Part shown: positions 2,522 through 16,127 of the stretch, one piece after another | Layout of the letters: every line of letters starts with the position of its first letter | Numbering within the stretch: the stretch's first letter is position 1 | Source of the DNA: an uncultured virus (IMG/VR IMGVR_UViG_3300032225_002272) | Taxonomy: Duplodnaviria; Heunggongvirae; Uroviricota; Caudoviricetes | Reading direction: 5' to 3' (one strand) | Length of the DNA stretch: 20,000 bases | Virus record (IMG/VR): IMGVR_UViG_3300032225_002272 | The notes under the pieces: model-generated | Database searches by the model: none | Told to the model about the DNA's origin: nothing | What the model saw: only the letters and a program-made list of their open reading frames with translations | Position numbers and translations under genes: made by a program

Positions 2522-2905
2522 ATGGAACAAAAGAAAAGACCTGATAGCTTTGTAGAAAACAGATTATCTAAGAGATATCCAACGGAAATTGGCGCACCAA
2601 AATTTGAACCTGATAATATTTCTCTTTTTAAAATTGAAAAAACTTCTAAAATAAAAAAATACTATTCTTCAAGATTTGAAGAGATGACTAAAGAGTATGA
2701 AAAGTTAATGTCAGAAATTCAAATGAATGAAAGACTTTATACGGCTTCACACAACTTTGAACCAATCTCTGGCGAAACTTACCACTTATATAAAAAGGAA
2801 TCCGGTCAAGAATTTCTTTCTTTAATATCTCCGGAACAATGGGCAAAATTTGATTTCATCGGATCTTATAGATTCTTATCAGACGGTAGATGGGAGGCTA
2901 TTTAA
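2522..2905 (+). CDS. DUF2452-like protein
   Basis: YPTEIGAPKFEP...FEPISGETYHLY...FLSLISPEQW resembles Bacteroidota DUF2452 proteins (recognised by eye). Confidence 0.6.
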   Translation: MEQKKRPDSFVENRLSKRYPTEIGAPKFEPDNISLFKIEKTSKIKKYYSSRFEEMTKEYEKLMSEIQMNERLYTASHNFEPISGETYHLYKKESGQEFLSLISPEQWAKFDFIGSYRFLSDGRWEAI

Positions 2906-4506
2906 CCTACCCACCCTTCTTTCAAACTTACAGTCTTATTGAAACTTTTACCGTCAGTGTCTAAAATATAATACCCTTTTCTCATCATTTGAACTGGTGC
3001 CTTGACTTTTAAAACATGAGGTTCAAAGATTGCCTTATCATTAATTATAAGTGAATCTGGGTTGATATAATTGATAAAATCATCTTCATTTTTATCAGGT
3101 GATTCATCATTGAATAATCTATCATATTCATTTACATTCATTCTAACTCCGTGTTCAGCAGATACCCAGTGAATGGTTCCTTTAATCTTTCTTTCAATAA
3201 ACATACCTGATCTTGTTAAAGGATCGTAAGTACATCTAATCTCAATGATTTCTCCGAATTCATCTTTGATAACTTCATTAGCCATAATAACATAAGCACC
3301 TTTTAATCTTACTTCACCACCTAATTTCAATCTATGAAATTTATTATTAGCTTCTTCTCTAAAATCTTCTCTTTCAATAAATAATTCTCCATTAAAAGGA
3401 ATCATTCTAGTACCAGCACTTTCATCACCAGGATTATTTTCAACTTCAACCATTTCAGTTCCGTTATCCCAATTAGTAATAACTAACTTAACTGGATCCA
3501 TGACACCCATTAATCTGTTGGTAACTATATTCAAATCAGTTCTTAAACATTCTTCTAAAAGTAAATAAGAAACAACCGATTCTTTTCTGGTAACAGAAAT
3601 TCTATCACAAAAATCTTTAATAGCATTTGGTGTAAAACCTCTTCTTCTTAAACCGGAAATAGTAGGCATTCTTGGATCATCCCAACCATCAACATAAGAT
3701 TCTTCAACCAATCTTTTTAATTTTCTCTTTGACATAACTGTATAGTCAATGTTCAAACGAGCAAACTCAGTTTCTTCTGGAAGTGGATTTTCTAAATCAC
3801 AATTTTCTAATACCCACATATATAAAGGTCTATGAACTTCAAATTCTAAAGTACATAAAGAATCAGTGATACCTTCTTTATAATCTGAAAGTGGATGAGC
3901 AAAGTCATACATTGGATAAATCTTCCAAGTATCACCAGCTCTGTGGTGTGACTTAGATATTATTCTATAAAGAACCGGATCTCTTAAAATCATATTAGGA
4001 GAAGTCATATCAATATTGGCTCTTAAAATTTTAGAACCTTCAGAGAATTCACCTAATCTCATTCTATTAAATAAGTCTAAGTTTTCTTCTATACTTCTAG
4101 ATTTATAAGGTGAGTCTTTACCAACTGAAGTTGGAGTTCCTTTTAAGTTAGCAATTTCTTCACTGGTTGAATCATCAACATAAGCTAATCCTTTCTTAAT
4201 TAAAGTAACAGCACAATCATAAAGAAAATCAAAATAATCAGATGTATAGAAAATGTTGGCTGGTTTGTAACCTAACCATTCTATATCTTTTATAATTGAT
4301 TCAACAAAGTGAGTATCTTCAGTAGTTGGATTTGTATCATCAAATCTCAAGTTACAAGGTCTATTATATTTTTCAGCCAAGCCAAAATTTAGTATAATGG
4401 ATTTAGCGTGACCCAGGTGTAGCAGACCATTGGGTTCAGGAGGAAATCTTAATGTTAGTTTATCAAGATTGTCTTTTTCTAATATTTTATCTTCAATGAA
4501 ATTCAT
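2902..4506 (-). CDS. glnS: Glutaminyl-tRNA synthetase
   Basis: RFPPEPNGLLHLGHAK (HIGH), LRFDDTNP, YPMYDFAH, SLCTLEF, MSKRKL (KMSKS-equivalent), WDDPRMPT; GlnRS C-terminal beta-barrel motifs (LKLGGEVRL, KGTIHWVS). Confidence 0.95.
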   Translation of the reverse strand: MNFIEDKILEKDNLDKLTLRFPPEPNGLLHLGHAKSIILNFGLAEKYNRPCNLRFDDTNPTTEDTHFVESIIKDIEWLGYKPANIFYTSDYFDFLYDCAVTLIKKGLAYVDDSTSEEIANLKGTPTSVGKDSPYKSRSIEENLDLFNRMRLGEFSEGSKILRANIDMTSPNMILRDPVLYRIISKSHHRAGDTWKIYPMYDFAHPLSDYKEGITDSLCTLEFEVHRPLYMWVLENCDLENPLPEETEFARLNIDYTVMSKRKLKRLVEESYVDGWDDPRMPTISGLRRRGFTPNAIKDFCDRISVTRKESVVSYLLLEECLRTDLNIVTNRLMGVMDPVKLVITNWDNGTEMVEVENNPGDESAGTRMIPFNGELFIEREDFREEANNKFHRLKLGGEVRLKGAYVIMANEVIKDEFGEIIEIRCTYDPLTRSGMFIERKIKGTIHWVSAEHGVRMNVNEYDRLFNDESPDKNEDDFINYINPDSLIINDKAIFEPHVLKVKAPVQMMRKGYYILDTDGKSFNKTVSLKEGWVG

Positions 4507-4524
4507 AATGTTTATATTTTTTAG

Positions 4525-4596
4525 TTGTCTCGCCAGGATTCGAACCTGGACTCTTTCCGTTCAAAGCGGCTTGTGTTGCCCTTACACCACGAGACA
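4525..4596 (-). tRNA. tRNA-Gln(UUG), weak anticodon stem
   Basis: TGTCTCG/CGAGACA acceptor (U1-A72), loop CTTTGAA, T-arm CCAGG TTCGAAT CCTGG. Confidence 0.85.
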
Positions 4597-4602
4597 TTGT
4601 TG

Positions 4603-4674
4603 TTGCTCCACTTGGACTCGAACCAAGCTCATCTGTTTCAAAGACAGATATGATCACCCATATACTATGGAGCA
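4603..4674 (-). tRNA. tRNA-Gln(UUG)
   Basis: TGCTCCA/TGGAGCA acceptor, TCTGT CTTTGAA ACAGA anticodon arm, CTTGG TTCGAGT CCAAG T-arm. Confidence 0.88.
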
Positions 4675-4676
4675 AT

Positions 4677-4710
4677 AAAAAACCCGAATCAATTAGATTG
4701 ATTCGGGTTT
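4677..4710 (-). terminator. Intrinsic terminator (attenuator) of the Gln leader
   Basis: AAACCCGAATCAAT-CTA-ATTGATTCGGG-TTTTTT, ending 2 nt before tRNA-Gln. Confidence 0.9.
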
Positions 4711-4738
4711 GTAAAGTTTAGACAATACGATACCATTA

Positions 4739-4789
4739 TCAATCTGTTGGATTAATTTGTTGTTGTTGGTATTGTGATGTTGTTCTCAT
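4739..4789 (-). CDS. Putative Gln-sensing leader peptide MRTTSQYQQQQINPTD
   Basis: 16 codons with five CAA; AATATATA motif 9 nt upstream; AGATTGAT across its stop is complementary to ATCAATCT in the terminator 5' arm and loop. Confidence 0.85.
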   Translation of the reverse strand: MRTTSQYQQQQINPTD

Positions 4790-4817
4790 AGTTCTATTTA
4801 TATATTTTGTTTCCTTG

Positions 4818-4895
4818 TCGAGATGGCAGGATTCGAACCTGCGAAATTCTCCTGCTCCCAAAGCAGGCGGGGTGACCTGGCTCCCCAACATCTCG
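4818..4895 (-). tRNA. tRNA-Pro(UGG)
   Basis: CGAGATG/CATCTCG acceptor, A73, CCTGC TTTGGGA GCAGG, GCAGG TTCGAAT CCTGC. Confidence 0.9.
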
Positions 4896-4904
4896 TTATT
4901 TTAG

Positions 4905-4977
4905 CGGTCCATACCGGATTCGAACCGGTACCACACACCGTGACAGGGTGGTATTGTAACCATTCAACCAATGGACC
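4905..4977 (-). tRNA. tRNA-Asp(GUC)
   Basis: GGTCCAT/ATGGACC acceptor, G73, CACC CTGTCAC GGTG, ACCGG TTCGAAT CCGGT. Confidence 0.9.
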
Positions 4978-5039: not shown

Positions 5040-5113
5040 TCGGGAAGGTCGGAATCGAACCGACTAACTGAAGCCTCCAGAGCCCCCGTGCTTAAAACCT
5101 TAGTCACTTCCCG
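5040..5113 (-). tRNA. Atypical tRNA-Pro(UGG)-like (C33, poor D stem)
   Basis: CGGGAAG/CTTCCCG acceptor with A73 (Pro-like), GGGGC TCTGGAG GCTTC anticodon arm, GTCGG TTCGATT CCGAC T-arm. Confidence 0.6.
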
Positions 5114-5128
5114 GTTTTAATATAAAAC

Positions 5129-5161
5129 AAAAAACCCAGTTAATCTTTCGACTAACTGGGT
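5129..5161 (-). terminator. Intrinsic terminator (attenuator) upstream of the Pro/Asp/Pro tRNAs
   Basis: ACCCAGTTAGTC-GAAA-GATTAACTGGGT followed by TTTTTGTTTT. Confidence 0.9.
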
Positions 5162-5185: not shown

Positions 5186-5284
5186 TTAACTTAAAACCAC
5201 ATAGTTAGCCTCTTTCGAACCAGGATCCTGATCGATTACAACTTGCGGTTGCGGGTTAACGATATTTAAGTTTAAGTTTTTCAT
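5186..5284 (-). CDS. Putative leader peptide MKNLNLNIVNPQPQVVIDQDPGSKEANYVVLS (Pro/Gln/Asp-sensing)
   Basis: 32 codons; 8 of codons 11-21 are Pro, Gln or Asp; GGCTAACT (5203-5210) can pair with AGTTAGTC of the terminator 5' arm; AATATATA 5 nt upstream. Confidence 0.75.
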   Translation of the reverse strand: MKNLNLNIVNPQPQVVIDQDPGSKEANYVVLS

Positions 5285-5289
5285 TTCTT

Positions 5290-5434
5290 TATATATTAAA
5301 AAGTTTTTCTTCCTTTTGTTCTTATTTTATACAAATATACAACAAAGTTTTAATTTGTCAAATATTTTTTTAATTTATTTTATTTTTTCTCTTTTGTGAC
5401 TACAAAGATATGTAGTTTATTTTAGATTGCCAAA
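5290..5434 (-). promoter_or_regulatory. Tandem Bacteroidota-type promoters plus AATATATA motif for tRNA array 1
   Basis: TTTG(5431-5434)-N20-TATCTTTG(5403-5410); TTTG(5359-5362)-N19-TATATTTG(5332-5339); AATATATA(5290-5297). Confidence 0.7.
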
Positions 5435-5796
5435 TTTTCTTTTGATTTATAATCTAAAATTTCAATGTTAAAAGCCGATGATAGTTTATGACCTAATTCA
5501 TCAACTATAGCAAATATTTCTTTTTCATTATAAACAGTAATATTAAAGTGGACAACAGCATCTATTTCAACAGCACCATCTGCTAATTCAGCAACAGTTC
5601 CTTCTTCAAGAATGTTAACTTCAATAGATTCAGGGTTATAAACCAACTCACTAACTTTAGATAATCCTAAGTTTATTTTATCTTCTGTGATGTCTTCACC
5701 TTTACATAGAATATCTATGTTATAAGATTCTTTTGGGGCAGAATATCTGAATCCTACGGTTCTTTGATATTCATTTATTGATTTTAAATGCTTCAT
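5422..5796 (-). CDS. Hypothetical protein with MKHLKSINE N-terminal motif
   Basis: 124-aa ORF preceded by AATATATA. Confidence 0.75.
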   Translation of the reverse strand: MKHLKSINEYQRTVGFRYSAPKESYNIDILCKGEDITEDKINLGLSKVSELVYNPESIEVNILEEGTVAELADGAVEIDAVVHFNITVYNEKEIFAIVDELGHKLSSAFNIEILDYKSKENLAI

Positions 5797-5821
5797 ATAT
5801 TATATATTAATTTTTACAAAC

Positions 5822-5850
5822 AAAAAAACCCTCAGATAAATCTAAGGGTT
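5822..5850 (-). terminator. Intrinsic terminator after the cold-shock gene
   Basis: AACCCTTAGA-TTTA-TCTGAGGGTT followed by a T run. Confidence 0.8.
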
Positions 5851-5872
5851 AATTAATTAGTGTTAAAATATA

Positions 5873-6064
5873 TTAAGCGTTAACTGATACGTTAACTGCG
5901 TTTAATCCTTTTTTACCTTCTGTTACTTCAAAGCTAACTGAATCTTTTTCTTTAATCTCATCAATTAATCCTGTAGCGTGTACAAACACGTCTGTTCCGT
6001 TTTCGTCTGTGATGAAACCAAATCCTTTAGCTTCATTGTAGAACTTTACTGTTCCTGTTTTCAT
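5873..6064 (-). CDS. cspA: Cold-shock protein (CspA family)
   Basis: GTVKFYNEAKGFGFI (RNP1), DVFVHATGL (RNP2), GKKGLNAVNV. Confidence 0.95.
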   Translation of the reverse strand: MKTGTVKFYNEAKGFGFITDENGTDVFVHATGLIDEIKEKDSVSFEVTEGKKGLNAVNVSVNA

Positions 6065-10563: not shown

Positions 10564-10598
10564 AAAAAAAGCCTCTGATTTTAGAGGCTTTCTTTTTT
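10564..10598. terminator. Bidirectional intrinsic terminator between convergent genes
   Basis: A7-GCCTCT-GATTTT-AGAGGC-TTTCTTTTTT. Confidence 0.8.
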
Positions 10599-12222
10599 AT
10601 AGAGTATTTTGAATTCTTATCATTGTTTCATCCTTACCAAGGATTTCCATTGTTGATACCAAGTCTGGACCTGGCATACCACCTGTAATAGCAACTCTTA
10701 AAGCCGGCATTACTTTACCCATCTTAACACCCATTTCTTGACAAAGGTCGTGAATAGTTTGTTTAATAGTTTCAGCATTCCAATCAATTGATTTAGTTAT
10801 GAATGAACTAAATACTTTTTTATAATCATCAGTTAATAACTTAACATCAGCTTCTTTAATCACAATTGGCTTAAAGAATATATCAGCAACAACTTGTAAA
10901 TCTTTTGTAAAGACTGCTCTCTTTTTACAGATGTCAACAATCTTAGAAATATTTTCCGGTGAATACTGATATTGGTCACCCATATCAATATGTGAAAGAA
11001 TTTCTTCATCACTTCTGTAAGTGTTCAAATGTTGAGCATTAAAGTGTTTAGCTTTTTCAACATCAAAACGAGCACCAGCTTTATGAACATGTGATAAGTC
11101 AAACTTAGAAATCATATCAGCCATTGTCATTACTTCGGTAGTATCAGTTGGAGACCAACCTAAAAGAACTAAGAAGTTCAACATAGCTTGTGGTTCAAAA
11201 CCTTCATCTTTGAAACCAAGATACTTAACAGTATTTCCTTTATCATCTTCACCTTCACCACCCATCGGGAAAGCAGGAATACCCATAGAAAGAGCTTTAC
11301 GTTTAGACAACTTGCCTTTACCATCTGGATTTAGAATCAATGGTAAGTGAGCAAAAGTAGGAGCAGTCCAACCAAATGCTTCATATAACATTAAATGAAG
11401 CGGAGTTGAAGGCAACCATTCTTCACCACGAATAACGTGAGTTGTTCCCATATCATGGTCGTCACAAACATTAGCCATATGATATGTTGGAATACCATTT
11501 GATTTAACTAAAACTTTATCATCAGTTTGATTTGTGTTCAAACTAACTTCGCCACGAATTACATCAGTAACAGTGATTGTTCTATTTTCTGGTGTTTTGA
11601 AACGAATTACAAATGGAGTTTTATTAGCAAGTAAAGCATCAACTTCTTCTTCAGATAAAGAAAGTGAGTTCCTCATTGACATACGAGTTTTAGTATCGTA
11701 AGCAAAGTGAGCATTTTCGGTTCTTACTTTAGCCATATCTTCTTCTGTATCAAAAGCATAGTAAGCCATACCTTTATCTAAAAGAGTTTGAATATGACCA
11801 GAATAATCTCTTTCTGATTGACGGTAAGGACCATTAGGACCACCTTTCCAAGGCGCATAATCTGGTTCGATACCACACCATTCTAAAGAGTCTTGGATGT
11901 ACTTTTCAGCATCCCCAACAAAGCGTTTTTGGTCAGTATCTTCAATGCGAACATAAAATATACCATCGTGTTTTTTAGCAAACAGATAGTTGTAAAGGGC
12001 AGTACGAACTCCACCGATATGTAAAAATCCTGTTGGTGAAGGAGCAAAACGAGTTACTACTTTACCTTTCGGTGTAATAGAATCTAAAGCATCTAAACTT
12101 TTTTGAACATCAGGAGATTGACCATCATCATTTGTAGCAAGTGTATGAAGAGCGTTGTCTTTCATTTCACCTTTTGATTCAGTAAGAAATTTATCTCTAT
12201 TTTTAATGTATTTCATGTCCAT
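10597..12222 (-). CDS. gltX: Glutamyl-tRNA synthetase with an N-terminal extension of about 50 aa (start 12222 or 12216)
   Basis: VVTRFAPSPTGFLHIGGVRTALYN (HIGH), RIEDTDQ, PYRQSER, THVIRGEEW, KLSKRK, LRVAITG..GPDL. Confidence 0.95.
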   Translation of the reverse strand: MDMKYIKNRDKFLTESKGEMKDNALHTLATNDDGQSPDVQKSLDALDSITPKGKVVTRFAPSPTGFLHIGGVRTALYNYLFAKKHDGIFYVRIEDTDQKRFVGDAEKYIQDSLEWCGIEPDYAPWKGGPNGPYRQSERDYSGHIQTLLDKGMAYYAFDTEEDMAKVRTENAHFAYDTKTRMSMRNSLSLSEEEVDALLANKTPFVIRFKTPENRTITVTDVIRGEVSLNTNQTDDKVLVKSNGIPTYHMANVCDDHDMGTTHVIRGEEWLPSTPLHLMLYEAFGWTAPTFAHLPLILNPDGKGKLSKRKALSMGIPAFPMGGEGEDDKGNTVKYLGFKDEGFEPQAMLNFLVLLGWSPTDTTEVMTMADMISKFDLSHVHKAGARFDVEKAKHFNAQHLNTYRSDEEILSHIDMGDQYQYSPENISKIVDICKKRAVFTKDLQVVADIFFKPIVIKEADVKLLTDDYKKVFSSFITKSIDWNAETIKQTIHDLCQEMGVKMGKVMPALRVAITGGMPGPDLVSTMEILGKDETMIRIQNTL

Positions 12223-13325: not shown

Positions 13326-13348
13326 AATTATGATTTTATTTTATCGAG

Positions 13349-13429
13349 TATCAGAAGAGAGACTTGAACTCTCATACCGTTAGGTGCTGGCTTTTGAGAC
13401 CAGTGTGTATACCATTCCACCATTCTGAC
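13349..13429 (-). tRNA. tRNA-Leu(CAA)
   Basis: GTCAGAA/TTCTGAT acceptor, CTGGT CTCAAAA GCCAG, long variable arm, A73. Confidence 0.9.
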
Positions 13430-13434
13430 ATTTG

Positions 13435-13506
13435 TAGCGATACCAGGAATCGAACCTGGTCCTCAAGGATATGAGCCGAGTGAGCTTGCCGTTACACCAT
13501 ATCGCC
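13435..13506 (-). tRNA. tRNA-Met(CAU) (or Ile2), weak anticodon stem
   Basis: GGCGATA/TATCGCT acceptor, loop CTCATAT, CCAGG TTCGATT CCTGG. Confidence 0.75.
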
Positions 13507-13511
13507 ATTTG

Positions 13512-13572
13512 TACCCAAAGAGAGACTCGAACTCTCACTCCTTTCAGAACTTGCTTCTTACACCATCTGGGC
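13512..13572 (-). pseudogene. Internally deleted tRNA-Leu
   Basis: Acceptor GCCCAGA/TTTGGGT, Leu-type variable arm and T-arm intact; D-loop and 5' anticodon stem missing (61 nt total). Confidence 0.7.
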
Positions 13573-13579
13573 ATTGTTG

Positions 13580-13666
13580 TAGCGGGGGCAGGATTCGAAC
13601 CTGACGTGTCACTTGCGCAACCCTGGGTTATGAGCCCAGTGAGTTTGACCTCTACTCTACCCCGCG
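13580..13666 (-). tRNA. Initiator tRNA-fMet(CAU) with a long variable arm
   Basis: C1:U72 mismatch, CTGGG CTCATAA CCCAG (three G-C pairs), variable hairpin GTTGC GCAA GTGAC. Confidence 0.85.
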
Positions 13667-13673
13667 ATGTTTG

Positions 13674-13745
13674 TGTCGATACCTGGAATCGAACCAAGTC
13701 CTCAGGAACATGTCCCCCTGCACCCTACCAATAGGCTATATCGAA
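13674..13745 (-). tRNA. Degenerate tRNA-Met-like, 8-nt anticodon loop
   Basis: TCGATA/TATCGA acceptor similar to 13435-13506; CAGGG GGACATGT TCCTG; normal T-arm. Confidence 0.55.
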
Positions 13746-13751
13746 GTTTAG

Positions 13752-13836
13752 TACCTGGAGAGGGACTCGAACCCTCACGGGCATTTCTGCCCACTGGATT
13801 TTAAGTCCAGCGTGTCTACCATTCCACCACCCAGGC
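13752..13836 (-). tRNA. tRNA-Leu(UAA)
   Basis: GCCTGGG/TCCAGGT acceptor, CTGGA CTTAAAA TCCAG, long variable arm. Confidence 0.92.
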
Positions 13837-13852
13837 AGGTGATTTTATTTTG

Positions 13853-13936
13853 AGCCGATGGAGGGACTCGAACCCCCGTTGGACTATTCGTCTCTGGTTT
13901 ACAAAACCAGTGCTGTCGCCACTGAGCCACATCGGC
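13853..13936 (-). tRNA. tRNA-Thr(UGU) with a long variable arm
   Basis: GCCGATG/CATCGGC acceptor, CTGGT TTTGTAA ACCAG, variable region AGACGAATAGTCCAAC. Confidence 0.85.
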
Positions 13937-13955
13937 ATATAATGGAGGAAAGTCT

Positions 13956-14042
13956 AAAGAGTGATTTTACTGAAGGACTTGAACCTTCAAAAGTTTGTTT
14001 TTAAGACAAATGTGTATACCATTTCACGAAGTAACACTCTTA
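13956..14042 (-). ncRNA. tRNA-Leu(UAA)-like element with an extended, closed acceptor stem
   Basis: D-arm GTG AAATGGTATA CAC, TTTGT CTTAAAA ACAAA, GAAGG TTCAAGT CCTTC; acceptor TTACT/AGTAA continued by AAGAGTG/CACTCTT. Confidence 0.55.
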
Positions 14043-14061
14043 ATCACCATCCATTATTTTG

Positions 14062-14133
14062 TTGTCCTGGTCGGTAACGATCCGACTACCTCTTCCATGT
14101 CACAGAAGCGCTCTCCCATTGAGCTACAGAACA
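14062..14133 (-). tRNA. tRNA-Val(GAC)
   Basis: TGTTCTG/CAGGACA acceptor, CTTCT GTGACAT GGAAG, T-loop ATCGTTA. Confidence 0.85.
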
Positions 14134-14139
14134 ATTTAG

Positions 14140-14211
14140 AGCTTCTTACCGGTAACGATCCGATTTCTCTAGTTTACAAGACTAGCGCATCACCATTAAT
14201 GCTTAAGAAGC
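14140..14211 (-). tRNA. tRNA-Thr(UGU)
   Basis: GCTTCTT/AAGAAGC acceptor, CTAGT CTTGTAA ACTAG, T-loop ATCGTTA. Confidence 0.87.
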
Positions 14212-14216
14212 GTTTG

Positions 14217-14299
14217 AGGTACTGACTGGGTTCGAACCAGTGTGACAGATTTTGCAGATCTGTGCCTCTCGTCTTTCGACACCACTCGGCCACAGTACC
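14217..14299 (-). tRNA. tRNA-Cys(GCA) with an extra hairpin in the D-loop
   Basis: GGTACTG/CAGTACC acceptor, U73, CAGAT CTGCAAA ATCTG; D-loop contains GTC GAAA GAC. Confidence 0.85.
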
Positions 14300-14309
14300 A
14301 TATGTTTTG

Positions 14310-14383
14310 TTGGACTGGTCGGTTACGATCCGACCACCTCCACGGTATCAGCGTGGCGCTCTGACCAAATGAGCTACAGTCCA
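14310..14383 (-). tRNA. tRNA-Ile(GAU)
   Basis: TGGACTG/CAGTCCA acceptor, CCACG CTGATAC CGTGG, T-loop ATCGTAA. Confidence 0.88.
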
Positions 14384-14391
14384 ATTTTTTG

Positions 14392-14464
14392 TAGTCCCGG
14401 TCGGTTACGATCCGACTCCCTCCACTATGTAACAGTGGCGCTCCCCCGATTGAGCTACAGGACT
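14392..14464 (-). tRNA. tRNA-Val(UAC)
   Basis: AGTCCTG/CGGGACT acceptor, CCACT GTTACAT AGTGG, T-loop ATCGTAA. Confidence 0.85.
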
Positions 14465-14478
14465 ATTCTAAACATTTG

Positions 14479-14553
14479 CTCCCCGTAGTGGATTTGAACC
14501 ACTGACCCTTCGCTTAACAGGCGAACGCTCTAGAACCGCTGAGCTAACGAGGA
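14479..14553 (-). tRNA. tRNA-Asn(GUU)
   Basis: TCCTCGT/ACGGGGA acceptor, G73, TTCGC CTGTTAA GCGAA. Confidence 0.92.
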
Positions 14554-14566
14554 ATTTATAATTTTG

Positions 14567-14649
14567 TACCGAAGGTGGGACTCGAACCCACACACCCTTT
14601 CGGGTACCAACTTCTAAGGCTGGCGTGTCTACCATTCCACCACTTCGGC
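14567..14649 (-). tRNA. tRNA-Leu(UAG)
   Basis: GCCGAAG/CTTCGGT acceptor, CCAGC CTTAGAA GTTGG, long variable arm. Confidence 0.92.
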
Positions 14650-15459
14650 ATTTATTTTTCTTTTATAACAATTTTTATAAAATTCTGGATCGATTTCTTT
14701 TAATAGTTTATTTACATTTTTAACTTTTAATATCTCAGATGCTAGTTTAACCCATCCAATCTTTTTAAAATCTATACTACTACTTTTTAATTTATTTAAT
14801 CTTTCACTATAACTATCCAGTTTATTAATTTTTCTTTTATTCCAGTACTCTTCCCTATTCTTATATTTTTTTTCTTTCTTATTTTTTATATAAAATGGTA
14901 TATCGATTTTATTATTATTTTTAATATTTTCTAAAATAGAATCACACATTTCTAAATTATAAACAATTGAGTAGTGTACTTCATATATCGACCATCCTTT
15001 ATTTTTTATAAAACTATTTCTTTCACTATAGTAATCTTTAAGTTCTCCATTAGATTTATAATGTTGATTACCATTAATTTCTACAACCGAAGTGAACTCA
15101 GGTATTAAAATATCAACCGAATAGAATCTTTCTTTTGAAATCATAACCTCTTCCAAAAAGAAAATATTTCTACTTTTTAAGAATTTCTTAAACTCCTCAC
15201 AAGGCTTAGATTTATTTCCGTTTCTCCAAGGATGTTTAGATGTATTTTCTTTCAACCATTTTTTTCTACCTTCTGATATTAACTTTTTTGTTTCTCTTTT
15301 TACTTCATATTTTTTTAATTTCCAATTTTCTTTATTCAATAAACCTTTTTTTACAAAAGTTCTTAATTTTTTAATTGATATACTATACTTAATTAGTATA
15401 TCTTTTTGATAAAAAAGACCACTTTCAAAGTCTTTTTGAATATTTTCAAAGTCTAACAT
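14629..15459 (-). CDS. DUF559/Vsr-like PD-(D/E)xK endonuclease, probable free-standing homing endonuclease
   Basis: SKPCEEF..L...FYSVDIL....VVEINGNQHY...ERNSFIKNKGWSIYEV; NUMOD3-like ETKKLISEGRK; lies inside the tRNA array. Confidence 0.75.
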   Translation of the reverse strand: MLDFENIQKDFESGLFYQKDILIKYSISIKKLRTFVKKGLLNKENWKLKKYEVKRETKKLISEGRKKWLKENTSKHPWRNGNKSKPCEEFKKFLKSRNIFFLEEVMISKERFYSVDILIPEFTSVVEINGNQHYKSNGELKDYYSERNSFIKNKGWSIYEVHYSIVYNLEMCDSILENIKNNNKIDIPFYIKNKKEKKYKNREEYWNKRKINKLDSYSERLNKLKSSSIDFKKIGWVKLASEILKVKNVNKLLKEIDPEFYKNCYKRKINAEVVEW

Positions 15460-15512
15460 AATACAAACCTACATTTTACTTATATATTAATAAGACCAGT
15501 GTCCCTTTTTTG

Positions 15513-15591
15513 TACCCCAGGTAGGATTCGAACCTACATTTTCAGTTCCGTTACGATTAGTCGCTTAGAAGGCGACCTCGGCTACTGAGGC
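15513..15591 (-). tRNA. Atypical tRNA-Arg(UCU) lacking a D-arm, with a 22-nt variable region
   Basis: GCCTCAG/CTGGGGT acceptor, only TAGCCGAG before GTCGC CTTCTAA GCGAC, GTAGG TTCGAAT CCTAC T-arm. Confidence 0.7.
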
Positions 15592-15597
15592 GTTTTG

Positions 15598-15669
15598 CTC
15601 ACTGGGGGAATTACGATATCCCGACCTAACGGTTAACAGCCGTTTGCTCTGCCTCTGAGCTACCAGTGA
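15598..15669 (-). tRNA. tRNA-Asn(GUU)
   Basis: TCACTGG/CCAGTGA acceptor, G73, AACGG CTGTTAA CCGTT, T-loop ATCGTAA. Confidence 0.87.
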
Positions 15670-15675
15670 ATTTTG

Positions 15676-15760
15676 TCGGTAGGGTGGGATTTGAACCCAC
15701 GTTGTGATTTCTCACCTAGTGTATCAGACTAGTCCCTGAAGACCGCTCGGGTACCTACCG
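15676..15760 (-). tRNA. tRNA-Ile(GAU) with a class II-like long variable arm
   Basis: CGGTAGG/CCTACCG acceptor, A73, CTAGT CTGATAC ACTAG, variable hairpin GTGA GAAA TCAC. Confidence 0.82.
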
Positions 15761-15775
15761 TTATTTTTTGAACAT

Positions 15776-15808
15776 AAAAAAACCCTCAGATTTTGTGTCT
15801 GAGGGTTT
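15776..15808 (-). terminator. Intrinsic terminator (attenuator) upstream of the 18-element tRNA array
   Basis: AAACCCTCAGA-CACAAAA-TCTGAGGG-TTTTTTT, 15 nt before the first tRNA. Confidence 0.9.
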
Positions 15809-15838
15809 CGATTATCCTTTATTAAAATTTGTTACATA

Positions 15839-15949
15839 TTAACTAACAAATCGTTTAGATATGACGAAGCCCTCAGAGCGTCTAATACATAACGTATTAT
15901 TCACCACTGTCAGTGTATTCATGTTCATATTTAAATTCATTGTTTTCAT
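15839..15949 (-). CDS. Putative multi-amino-acid leader peptide MKTMNLNMNMNTLTVVNNTLCIRRSEGFVISKRFVS
   Basis: 36 codons; 23 of the first 24 residues are M/T/N/L/V/C/I/R, the specificities of the downstream tRNAs; TCTGAGGGCTTCG (15865-15877) pairs 12/13 with CGAAACCCTCAGA of the terminator 5' arm. Confidence 0.85.
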   Translation of the reverse strand: MKTMNLNMNMNTLTVVNNTLCIRRSEGFVISKRFVS

Positions 15950-15954
15950 TGTTG

Positions 15955-16127
15955 TATATATTAAAAAGTTTTTGTCCCTTTTGACTTATTTTATACAAAT
16001 ATAGATAAAAGTTTTAAGTTTGCCTAATTTTTTTCTAAAAATTTGTAAAACAATTGAAAGTTGTATCTAAATCGTTGCCTCTCTCAATTGTTATACAAAC
16101 ATAAGGAGATATTTTCATATCACCAAA
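15955..16127 (-). promoter_or_regulatory. Tandem Bacteroidota-type promoters plus AATATATA motif for tRNA array 2
   Basis: TTTG(16124-16127)-N20-TATGTTTG(16096-16103); TATATTTG(15996-16003); AATATATA(15955-15962); 15955-16034 closely resembles 5290-5370. Confidence 0.7.

What the first reader, a model, noticed from the sequence alone, without database searches (positions are those of the whole stretch)
15776..15962. Eight-amino-acid leader acting as a table of contents for the 18-element tRNA array
Codons 1-24 give M4, T4, N6, L3, V2, C1, I1, R2, K1. The array encodes Met, Thr, Asn, Leu, Val, Cys, Ile and Arg tRNAs and nothing else, so all eight are represented and only Lys2 falls outside. 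Codons fit the anticodons (ACA/ACG-UGU, TTA-UAA, CTG-UAG, GTG-UAC, TGT-GCA, ATT-GAU, AGA-UCU, AAT/AAC-GUU); CGC is the exception. The bias ends exactly where the antiterminator strand TCTGAGGGCTTCG begins (codon 25). That strand pairs 12/13 with the terminator 5' arm, and an apical helix ATTTGTTA/TAACAAAT encloses the stop codon. Classical leaders sense one to three amino acids; this would be an eight-input OR gate. Caveat: stalls at codons 21-24 (C, I, R) may mask the antiterminator strand.
Basis: partly seen in the sequence, partly recalled or inferred. Interest (0 to 1): 0.93.

Follow-up and report, generated by a model that had tools for sequence, protein, structure and literature searches.

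The report
Leader-peptide attenuators gating phage tRNA operons
In this giant phage, each block of tRNA genes sits behind a tiny test gene written in the codons those tRNAs read, followed by a switchable transcription stop, so the phage probably makes a tRNA block only when ribosomes read those codons slowly.

Summary
It comprises a 36-codon ORF (15949..15839), an antiterminator strand (15878..15864), an apical helix around the stop codon, and a strong terminator (15807..15776) 15 nt before the first tRNA.

The "table of contents" reading is supported. The window holds two more such leaders:
- A Pro/Gln/Asp-rich one (5284..5186) before Pro/Asp/Pro tRNAs.
- A nested poly-Gln one (4789..4739) before two tRNA-Gln genes and glutaminyl-tRNA synthetase.

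An automated search found 50 leader/tRNA-unit pairs in 13 phage records. In each of three genomes with seven leaders, the true leader-to-tRNA-set pairing is the single best of 5040. No codon shuffle out of 100,000 reaches the observed match.

In 14 of 14 leaders tested, the cognate codons end where a ribosome would start to cover the antiterminator. Records with other tRNA mixes have matching leaders. A cultured Cellulophaga phage has three.

The mechanism is inferred; no expression data were available. Part of this leader's match is a composition shared by all leader N-termini.

Nine literature searches found no published account. Earlier notes of this scan report the same kind on other DNA.

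The parts
15996..16003 (-). TAnnTTTG promoter-like motif, 54 nt upstream of the leader ATG
   Evidence: The same motif lies within 130 nt upstream of 38 of 50 leaders, typically at -54 to -66. That this is the Bacteroidetes -7 consensus is recalled knowledge, not a tool result.
15955..15973 (-). Conserved 19-nt element just upstream of the ATG, ending in TAATATATA; function unknown
   Evidence: an identical copy lies at 5290-5308 before the second leader. TAATATATA with at most 1 mismatch lies within 40 nt of the ATG in 41 of 50 leaders.
15839..15949 (-). Leader ORF, 36 codons plus stop
   Evidence: It is conserved in 10 other records, with the same start and a similar distance to the terminator.
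15890..15946 (-). Sensor zone, codons 2-20. A ribosome with its A site here leaves the antiterminator strand free.
   Evidence: 18 of 19 codons are read by the array's anticodons.
15864..15878 (-). Antiterminator strand, codons 24-29
   Evidence: -18.3 kcal/mol duplex with the terminator 5' arm; 0 of 200 shuffles as good; covariation.
15826..15852 (-). Apical helix of the antiterminator hairpin. Its loop holds the stop codon at 15841..15839.
   Evidence: Helix 3 has 5 of 9 pairs with changes on both sides.
15776..15807 (-). Intrinsic terminator: 10-bp stem, 7-nt loop, T-run
   Evidence: 96% of cells are paired across 11 records.
13348..15760 (-). Gated tRNA array. It holds 17 detectable tRNA genes (Ile, Asn, Arg, Leu, Val, Cys, Thr, Met) and is interrupted by a 276-codon ORF at 15459..14629.
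   Evidence: The ORF matches no family apart from a weak PHROG hit.
5186..5284 (-). Second leader ORF, 32 codons, with Pro, Gln and Asp codons in the last 11 codons of its sensor zone
5129..5161 (-). Terminator of the second leader. Downstream lie a weak Pro(UGG) tRNA (5113..5040), Asp (4977..4904) and Pro (4895..4817).
4739..4789 (-). Third, nested leader ORF of 16 codons, five of them Gln. It starts 28 nt after tRNA-Pro and has no TAnnTTTG motif.
4677..4710 (-). Terminator of the poly-Gln leader
   Evidence: -16.9 kcal/mol.
2902..4674 (-). Unit gated by the poly-Gln leader: two tRNA-Gln(UUG) genes, then glutamine-tRNA ligase (4506..2902)
   Evidence: (TIGR00440, 656 bits against a cut-off of 426). 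The same order occurs in W01, W02, G001 and G002.

Best explanation
The stretch is a ribosome-mediated (leader-peptide) transcription attenuator that gates a phage tRNA operon.

Proposed sequence of events:
1. Transcription starts at a host-type promoter about 40 nt upstream.
2. A ribosome translates the 36-codon leader while RNA polymerase moves on towards the terminator.
3. Codons 2-20 use only codons read by the tRNAs encoded downstream.
4. If any of those charged tRNAs is scarce, the ribosome stalls in this zone and leaves the antiterminator strand (codons 24-29) free.
5. The free strand pairs with the terminator's 5' arm before the 3' arm is made, and polymerase reads through into the array.
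6. If decoding is fast, the ribosome covers the antiterminator strand and opens the apical helix. The terminator then forms and the transcript ends 15 nt before the first tRNA.

Because the product is the sensed molecule, this would be a negative-feedback loop on tRNA supply, with an OR logic over about eight amino acids.

The same device, rewritten in other codons, heads each tRNA unit of this phage and its relatives. Some are nested inside others. One also gates glutaminyl-tRNA synthetase.

Shown here: anatomy, conservation, codon-to-anticodon association, covariation, and the geometry of the zone boundary.

Inferred: translation of the ORF, stalling, timing relative to polymerase, and the direction of the switch.
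For: (1) Anatomy is as described.

(2) The window has two further leaders whose codons match their own units.

(3) An automated search flagged 53 terminators next to tRNA genes. It looked for a terminator of -9 kcal/mol or better with T5 no more than 330 nt before a tRNA, plus an ATG ORF ending before it. Fifty of the 53 yielded a leader/unit pair, across 13 records.

(4) The zone was defined from structure alone. Zone codons read by the leader's own (nested) tRNA set, against shuffling the pooled zone codons among leaders:
- W01: 53/109 against mean 18.1, max 34
- W02: 48/106 against mean 17.2
- G001: 51/106 against mean 16.4
- G002: 56/91 against mean 19.4
- G004: 35/76 against mean 13.6
- G005: 32/68 against mean 15.5
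- X040: 34/54 against mean 18.2
- In all seven, 0 of 100,000 shuffles reach the observed count.
- Window: 30/49 against mean 18.6, reached by 1 of 100,000 shuffles.

(5) The true leader-to-set assignment is the single best of all assignments: of 5040 in W01, W02 and G001, of 720 in G002, and of 120 in G004 and G005.

(6) Codons downstream of the zone match far less, for example 3/32 in the window.

(7) The structure-defined zone ends at the last cognate codons in 14 of 14 leaders examined. The modelled probability that the terminator 5' arm is already paired drops at that point in 13 of 14; the W02 Glu/Tyr-type leader shows no contrast.

(8) The antiterminator fold on 11 aligned leaders of this type:
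- 80.3% of cells are paired, against 37-51% when partners are slid.
- 12 of 26 pairs have changes on both sides; 2 of 500 shuffles reach this.
- The covariation score is 0.185 against 0.122; 0 of 500 shuffles reach this.

(9) In G002 the terminator stem has a different sequence, and the strand inside the ORF changed with it.

(10) Records with different tRNA mixes have matching leaders:
- G006: Pro/Cys/Phe/Thr/Gln and Leu/Tyr/Trp units.
- L076: a Cys/Val/Leu unit.
- Cultured Cellulophaga phage phi40:1: three units.

(11) Solitary tRNA-Met genes, and the tRNA-Met at the head of the Glu/Tyr cluster, have a promoter or terminator but no leader. That fits initiator tRNA, which elongation stalls cannot sense. 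Their identity as initiators was not checked; the initiator-like features belong to a different tRNA-Met, inside this window's gated array.
Against: There are no expression, translation or termination data.

At equilibrium the terminator always wins. Its probability is 0.94-0.98 without a ribosome, and it falls only partly with one. The switch must therefore be kinetic, which was not modelled.

Once the ribosome reaches the last three or four codons or the stop, the antiterminator strand is uncovered again. The modelled value returns to 0.87. The model thus needs ribosome-polymerase timing or steric hindrance that I did not show.

Antiterminator complementarity is strong for all 11 leaders of this type (z -4.0 to -7.4). 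It is no better than shuffles (z above -1) in 11 of the 50 leaders. Only 28 of 50 have 10 or fewer of 200 shuffles as good.

Asn, Thr, Ile, Leu and Met codons also fill the first 5-10 codons of the other leader types. In the window's second leader, 8 of codons 2-10 belong to this set. Part of this leader's match is therefore a composition shared by all leaders.

Some leader codons have no tRNA called in their unit:
- Lys-2 and CGC-24 here.
- Met codons in the same-type leaders of W02, G004, G005, X040 and X090.
- The Trp codon in the His/Lys/Phe-type leaders of W02 and G004.

The records are related, so the per-genome tests are not independent replicates.
Confidence: 0.8

Rival explanations
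1. The leader is translated and attenuates transcription, but it reports general translation speed or ribosome availability, not the supply of particular tRNAs. Under this view the codon match is a by-product.
For: All leader types share a similar Asn/Thr/Ile/Leu-rich start. Equilibrium folding gives no codon-specific information.
Against: The later zone codons differ sharply between leader types and match each unit's own anticodons. The true assignment is the best of 5040, and 0 of 100,000 shuffles reach the observed match. Unit-specific rare residues (His, Trp, Cys, Gln runs) sit just before the zone boundary.
Confidence: 0.08
2. The RNA senses tRNAs directly, without a ribosome. Codon-like triplets in the leader would pair with the anticodons of free tRNAs, as the T-box specifier does, and so shift the terminator/antiterminator balance.
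For: The codon-anticodon complementarity is the same signal a direct-binding model would need.
Against: No T-box or other tRNA-binding family matched, even at E-values up to 10. The triplets are in one open frame. That frame has an ATG, a conserved stop 19-37 nt before the terminator arm, and no in-frame stops in 50 of 50 cases. Synonymous changes make up 21-46% of changed zone codons.
Confidence: 0.04
3. The ORF is spurious or encodes a small protein of its own. The hairpin is then an ordinary terminator of an upstream unit, and the tRNAs are read from elsewhere.
For: Ordinary gene-end terminators with a similar stem sequence exist in the window, for example after the cold-shock-like gene at 5850..5827. 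Six loci from other phages have the same terminator motif before mixed tRNA arrays without a codon-matched leader.
Against: A promoter-like motif lies between the upstream gene and the leader. Only 15 nt separate the T-run from the first tRNA, which leaves no room for another promoter. The peptide tail varies freely while its RNA pairing is kept. Composition tracks the downstream tRNAs.
Confidence: 0.04

Closest known systems
Multivalent leader-peptide attenuators of enterobacterial amino-acid operons: ilvGMEDA (Ile/Leu/Val), thr (Thr/Ile), ilvBN (Val/Leu). Recalled knowledge.
   Same: A short translated leader enriched in regulatory codons. An intrinsic terminator and a mutually exclusive antiterminator. 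More than one amino acid sensed. The ribosome's position decides the fold.
   Different: The gated genes here are tRNA genes, and in one case also a synthetase, not biosynthetic enzymes. Up to eight amino acids are listed. The host is a phage with Bacteroidetes-type promoters. Many paralogous leaders occur per genome, and some are nested. There is no sequence or Rfam relationship.
Leader-peptide control of aminoacyl-tRNA synthetase genes: the pheM leader of pheST (recalled), and the His-codon leader before hisS/hisZ in Bacilli (passages of PMC2965389 seen).
   Same: A translation-machinery gene is gated by a leader written in its own amino acid. The window's poly-Gln leader gates glutamine-tRNA ligase in the same way.
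   Different: Here the first gated products are the tRNAs themselves. The synthetase rides behind them.
T-box riboswitches
   Same: They sense tRNA status by codon-anticodon logic and switch between a terminator and an antiterminator.
   Different: A T-box binds uncharged tRNA directly, has one specifier codon and a conserved T-box sequence, and needs no ORF. No T-box match was found here.
Rfam leader families His_leader (RF00514), Phe_leader (RF01859) and the trpB motif (RF04312)
   Same: Sub-threshold matches over the terminator/antiterminator part: 23.9, 22.5 and 32.8 bits.
   Different: All are far below their gathering scores of 49, 55 and 59. They show a likeness of shape only.

Membership tests
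Leader-peptide (ribosome-mediated) transcription attenuators | A short ORF in the 5' leader, upstream of the regulated genes | tested here: met
   The ORF is 36 codons. The 50 leaders range from 16 to 43 codons, median 30.
Leader-peptide (ribosome-mediated) transcription attenuators | Regulatory codons that correspond to the regulated pathway's product | tested here: met
   18 of 19 zone codons are read by the array's anticodons.
Leader-peptide (ribosome-mediated) transcription attenuators | An intrinsic terminator between the leader ORF and the first regulated gene | tested here: met
   The 50 terminators range from -12.1 to -21.5 kcal/mol.
Leader-peptide (ribosome-mediated) transcription attenuators | A mutually exclusive antiterminator whose availability depends on ribosome position | tested here: met
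   for this leader type. It is weak or undetected in 11 of the 50 leaders (z above -1).
Leader-peptide (ribosome-mediated) transcription attenuators | Readthrough rises when the cognate charged tRNA is limiting | not testable with these tools
   This needs wet-lab work or RNA data.
Leader-peptide (ribosome-mediated) transcription attenuators | Regulated genes are amino-acid biosynthesis or synthetase genes (the classical scope) | tested here: not met
   The gated genes are tRNA genes. Only the poly-Gln unit also carries a synthetase. I therefore file it as a new variant, not a classical member.
T-box riboswitch | Stem I with a specifier loop and the conserved T-box sequence (Rfam model) | tested here: not met
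   No match at gathering score or at E-values up to 10.
Rfam His_leader / Phe_leader / Thr_leader / trpB motif | Score at or above the family's gathering threshold | tested here: not met
   Scores against thresholds: 23.9 against 49, 22.5 against 55, 15.5 against 55, and 32.8 against 59.

The most novel reading that the evidence does not exclude
The leaders together form a genome-wide, partly nested tRNA-supply homeostat. Seven or more leader types would cover about all 20 amino acids. This would let phages of Bacteroidetes switch on individual replacement-tRNA operons, and a synthetase, only when the pool for those codons collapses. Such collapse could follow host tRNA degradation or attack by an anticodon-nuclease defence. 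On this reading the system is a ribosome-sensed, inducible counter-defence.
Probability: 0.35. Interest if true: 0.95.

Novelty: new variant of a known kind. Interest (0 to 1): 0.88.

Why it matters
Leader-peptide attenuation is a textbook mechanism, but it is known for genes that make or charge amino acids. Here the same logic appears to gate tRNA genes themselves. It does so in a modular way: one leader per tRNA unit, each rewritten to list that unit's codons.

This bears on an open question, namely how and when phages express their large tRNA sets. It suggests demand-driven expression of single tRNA blocks.

It makes that question testable, because a cultured phage-host pair (Cellulophaga baltica with phage phi40:1 and its relatives) carries three such leaders.

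It also gives annotators a rule. Short "hypothetical proteins" just upstream of phage tRNA blocks may be leaders.

Finally, the family offers a natural set of multi-input codon sensors.

Tried and rejected
- The whole genome of the window is not held, so genome-wide background tests used the window and fetched loci only.
- A short conserved 5' motif was too unspecific to find paralogues in the two GenBank relatives: 19 matches against 5 for the control pattern. I switched to tRNA maps.
- Whole-ORF composition tests were weak because the variable tail dilutes the signal, with p from 1e-6 to 0.4. I replaced them with a structure-defined zone.
- Equilibrium probability of the terminator does not discriminate between ribosome positions for most leaders.
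- I looked for a leader before the glutamate-tRNA ligase gene (12222..10597). There is only a hydrophobic 45-codon ORF and no terminator.
- The terminator at 5850..5827 is the ordinary end of a cold-shock-like gene, not an attenuator.
- Relaxed ARAGORN called 14217-14299 Leu(CAG) with a poor fold. I rejected that in favour of the Rfam alignment, which gives Cys GCA and is conserved in three relatives.
- No 18th tRNA was found in the 74-nt gap at 13507-13580.
- Six loci from the collection scan have the same terminator motif before mixed tRNA arrays but no codon-matched leader: L052, L058, L063, L069, L081 and L082. I did not follow them further.
- Nine literature searches and term look-ups in four papers found no account of leader peptides before tRNA genes.
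- My vague memory of something similar at the E. coli tRNA-Phe genes found no support.

Full report
OBSERVATION

- The ORF at 15949..15839 has 36 codons, and its first 24 have exactly the stated composition.
- A strong intrinsic terminator (stem 15807..15781, T-run to 15776, -14.7 kcal/mol) ends 15 nt before tRNA-Ile at 15760.
That duplex spans nt 72-86, has 12 pairs and one mismatch, and scores -18.3 kcal/mol. None of 200 shuffles matches it.
- An apical helix (15852..15844 with 15834..15826) carries the stop codon in its loop.
- The 201-nt stretch folds far better than shuffles: z = -4.56, 0 of 200 as good. The minimum-energy fold shows the antiterminator and the centroid shows the terminator.

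The array has 17 detectable tRNA genes, not 18.
- ARAGORN.
- Two more are seen only by Rfam.
- Their alignments give anticodon loops for Cys GCA and Arg UCU.
- The set of eight amino acids is as stated.

Among 70 short ATG ORFs in the window, the eight-amino-acid set is hit 11.8 times on average (sd 3.2) in codons 2-24. The leader scores 22 of 23 and the runner-up 18.

WHAT THE WINDOW IS

The DNA resembles two uncultured phage genomes of 634,780 and 642,428 bp (LR745206, LR756502). They align at 77-79% identity over the leader region. The nearest held virus record, G001, is 476 kb.

The leader is preceded by a TAnnTTTG motif 54 nt upstream. I recall this as the Bacteroidetes -7 promoter consensus; that is recalled knowledge, not a tool result. 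A conserved 19-nt element follows it.

Neighbouring genes include glutamine-tRNA ligase and glutamate-tRNA ligase.

THE DECISIVE FINDING: THIS LEADER IS NOT ALONE

The same promoter and 19-nt element recur at 5339..5290. They head a 32-codon ORF (5284..5186) whose zone carries Pro, Gln and Asp codons. A terminator (5161..5129) follows, then Pro, Asp and Pro tRNAs.

Twenty-eight nt after that last tRNA-Pro lies a third ORF of 16 codons, five of them Gln (4789..4739). Then come a terminator (4710..4677), two tRNA-Gln genes and, 18 nt later, glutamine-tRNA ligase. This tRNA-Gln-then-ligase order behind a poly-Gln leader recurs in W01, W02, G001 and G002.

COMPARATIVE EVIDENCE

I mapped tRNA genes in eight related records and fetched their tRNA regions. 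I added loci from a scan of viral contigs with the terminator pattern.

An automated finder needed only three things: a terminator next to a tRNA gene, an ATG ORF ending before it, and no overlap with a tRNA. It flagged 53 terminators and yielded 50 leader/unit pairs in 13 records.

The three flagged terminators without a leader were:
- one ordinary gene-end terminator;
- two solitary tRNA-Met genes.

The leaders fall into at least seven types, each before its own tRNA unit:
1. His/Lys/Phe/Trp
2. Ser/Arg
3. Glu/Tyr
4. Ile/Gly/Ala
5. Asn/Thr/Leu/Val/Ile/Met/Cys/Arg (this finding's type)
6. Pro/Asp
7. Gln

General dimensions:
- ORFs have 16-43 codons.
- The stop lies 19-37 nt before the terminator arm.
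- Terminators score -12 to -21.5 kcal/mol.

STATISTICS

To avoid choosing the region by its composition, I defined a "zone" from structure alone. It comprises the codons whose A-site ribosome, taken as covering -15 to +12 nt, does not touch the best antiterminator duplex.

Table 1 gives the zone codons read, under strict wobble, by the anticodons of the leader's own unit, including units nested behind it. The null shuffles the pooled zone codons among the leaders of the same genome, 100,000 times.

| Record | Zone codons read by own set | Shuffle mean | Shuffles reaching observed | Rank of true assignment |
|---|---|---|---|---|
| W01 | 53/109 | 18.1 | 0 | best of 5040 |
| W02 | 48/106 | 17.2 | 0 | best of 5040 |
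| G001 | 51/106 | 16.4 | 0 | best of 5040 |
| G002 | 56/91 | 19.4 | 0 | best of 720 |
| G004 | 35/76 | 13.6 | 0 | best of 120 |
| G005 | 32/68 | 15.5 | 0 | best of 120 |
| X040 | 34/54 | 18.2 | 0 | best of 6 |
| Window | 30/49 | 18.6 | 1 | best of 6 |

Codons behind the zone match far less, for example 3 of 32 in the window.

For this finding's type, own-set reading of the zone is 16/20 to 21/24 across 11 records, and 18/19 in the window.

These records are relatives, so the tests are replicates on diverged copies. They are not independent samples.

Arrays with different tRNAs do not keep the same leader.
- The fragment G006 has a unit of Pro, Cys, Phe, Thr and Gln tRNAs behind a leader rich in exactly those residues. 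It also has a Leu/Tyr/Trp unit behind a leader with Leu, Tyr and Trp codons.
- L076 has a Cys/Val/Leu unit behind a Leu/Val/Cys-rich leader.
- G002 joins Glu, Tyr, Gly, Ile and Ala tRNAs behind one leader that lists all of them.
- The cultured Cellulophaga phage phi40:1 (KC821612) has three such leaders before three differently composed tRNA blocks. Two of them are annotated as hypothetical proteins with other start codons.

MECHANISM

In 14 of 14 leaders examined, the structure-defined zone ends at the last cognate codons.

I also modelled the transcript cut just before the terminator's 3' arm and masked a ribosome at each codon. The probability that the 5' arm is already paired upstream is high while the A site is in the zone. 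It then drops, in 13 of 14 leaders.
- In the window's leader it is 0.84-0.88 for codons 2-20.
- It falls to 0.79, 0.53, 0.46 and 0.39 for Cys-21, Ile-22, Arg-23 and Arg-24.

In the His/Lys/Phe/Trp type the value is also low for the first few codons. The sensitive window there coincides with the cognate codons, as in the classical four-segment design.

On the alignment of 11 leaders of this type, the antiterminator fold is paired in 80.3% of cells, against 37-51% for slid partners. Twelve of 26 pairs have changes on both sides (2 of 500 shuffles reach this). The covariation score exceeds all 500 shuffles. The structure was derived from the window's own sequence, which favours it somewhat.

The terminator itself is 96% paired and nearly invariant. 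The peptide tail encoded by the antiterminator varies freely while its pairing is kept. In G002 both the terminator stem and the strand inside the ORF have changed together.

CAVEATS

- Nothing shows that the ORFs are translated or that transcripts end at the T-run. RNA data could not be sought.
- At equilibrium the terminator always dominates, so the decision must be kinetic.
- The antiterminator strand is free again once the ribosome sits on the last codons. Timing with RNA polymerase, or hindrance by the terminating ribosome, has to be assumed.
- The simple duplex test is convincing for this leader type but not for 11 of the 50 leaders.
- Asn, Thr, Ile, Leu and Met codons fill the start of all leader types. 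Part of this leader's match is therefore generic.
- The strongest evidence for specificity comes from the other types, with their His, Trp, Tyr, Glu, Gly, Pro, Asp and Gln codons.
- Some leader codons lack a called tRNA in their unit: Lys-2 and CGC-24 here, Met in five same-type records, and Trp in two records of another type.
- The share of synonymous changes among changed zone codons (21-46%) is higher than in the tail in five of seven types. This is supportive but not decisive.

COMPARISON WITH WHAT IS KNOWN

The device works like the multivalent leader-peptide attenuators of amino-acid operons. For the Gln unit, it works like leader control of synthetase genes.

It is not a member of any Rfam family. 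Nothing reaches a gathering score, and the best sub-threshold hits are other terminator/antiterminator leaders. It is not a T-box.

Literature checks:
- Nine full-text searches found no description of leader peptides or attenuation in front of tRNA genes, in phages or elsewhere.
- Term look-ups in four papers found none either. These were the huge-phage paper, the premature-terminator survey, the pheL paper and the phi38:1 transcriptome paper.
- For those four papers I saw only the matching passages. Subscription journals are outside the library.

Earlier notes of this same scan report the same kind of element in other genomes and likewise found no publication. These are unchecked AI notes, not independent evidence.

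VERDICT

The finding is one member of a family of codon-matched, partly nested leader-peptide attenuators. These gate the tRNA operons, and one synthetase, of large phages with Bacteroidetes-type promoters. I class it as a new variant of a known kind. It is of high interest and is testable in a cultured system.

Noticed in passing
window 4789..2902 (-): A nested poly-Gln leader with no promoter motif of its own sits inside the Pro/Asp operon. It gates two tRNA-Gln genes plus glutamine-tRNA ligase. The same order occurs in four relatives.
   Followed up: yes
window 14217-14299, 15513-15591, 13580-13666 (-): Three oddly built tRNAs. (1) Cys(GCA) has a 13-nt insertion in the D loop and is conserved at the same array place in three relatives. 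(2) Arg(UCU) has its D region cut to 5 nt and a 19-nt variable arm. (3) A Met(CAU) has a C1/A72 mismatch and a GGG/CCC anticodon stem, both initiator-like, plus a 14-nt variable arm.
   Followed up: partly
window 13674-13745 (-); also L036 4118-4190 and L070: A tRNA whose anticodon loop is one base too long, giving an 8-nt loop. ARAGORN reads it as a four-base anticodon. It is conserved in two relatives. Whether it decodes four bases is unknown.
   Followed up: no
window 15955-15973 and 5290-5308 (-); L023 about 2310-2370; L035 about 1715-1775: The conserved element ending in TAATATATA also precedes a tRNA-Met that has no leader ORF, and precedes inner leaders that lack the TAnnTTTG motif. It may be a second, phage-specific promoter rather than a translation signal.
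   Followed up: partly
window 14629-15459 (-): A 276-codon ORF interrupts the tRNA array here and, judging by the gap, in G001, but not in W01 or W02. It has no Pfam or NCBIfam match and only a weak PHROG hit of unknown function.
   Followed up: partly
L113 (KC821612) 3071-3148, 4531-4620, 5773-5862: The cultured Cellulophaga phage phi40:1 has three codon-matched leaders before its tRNA blocks. Two overlap annotated hypothetical proteins (gp066, gp070) that were given other start codons. A Tyr-like tRNA at about 4720-4800 is not annotated (the Tyr reading is by eye).
   Followed up: partly
L052, L058, L063, L069, L081, L082: Other phages have the same terminator motif before mixed, all-amino-acid tRNA arrays but no codon-matched leader. 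A stretch upstream of the terminator is conserved between L058 and L081.
   Followed up: no
L027 (W02) and L107 (G004): The His/Lys/Phe-type leaders keep a Trp codon although neither ARAGORN nor, in W02, Rfam finds a tRNA-Trp in the unit.
   Followed up: partly
window 5873-6064 (-): A cold-shock-protein-like gene of 63 codons (read by eye from its sequence). It has an ordinary terminator whose stem resembles those of the attenuators.
   Followed up: partly
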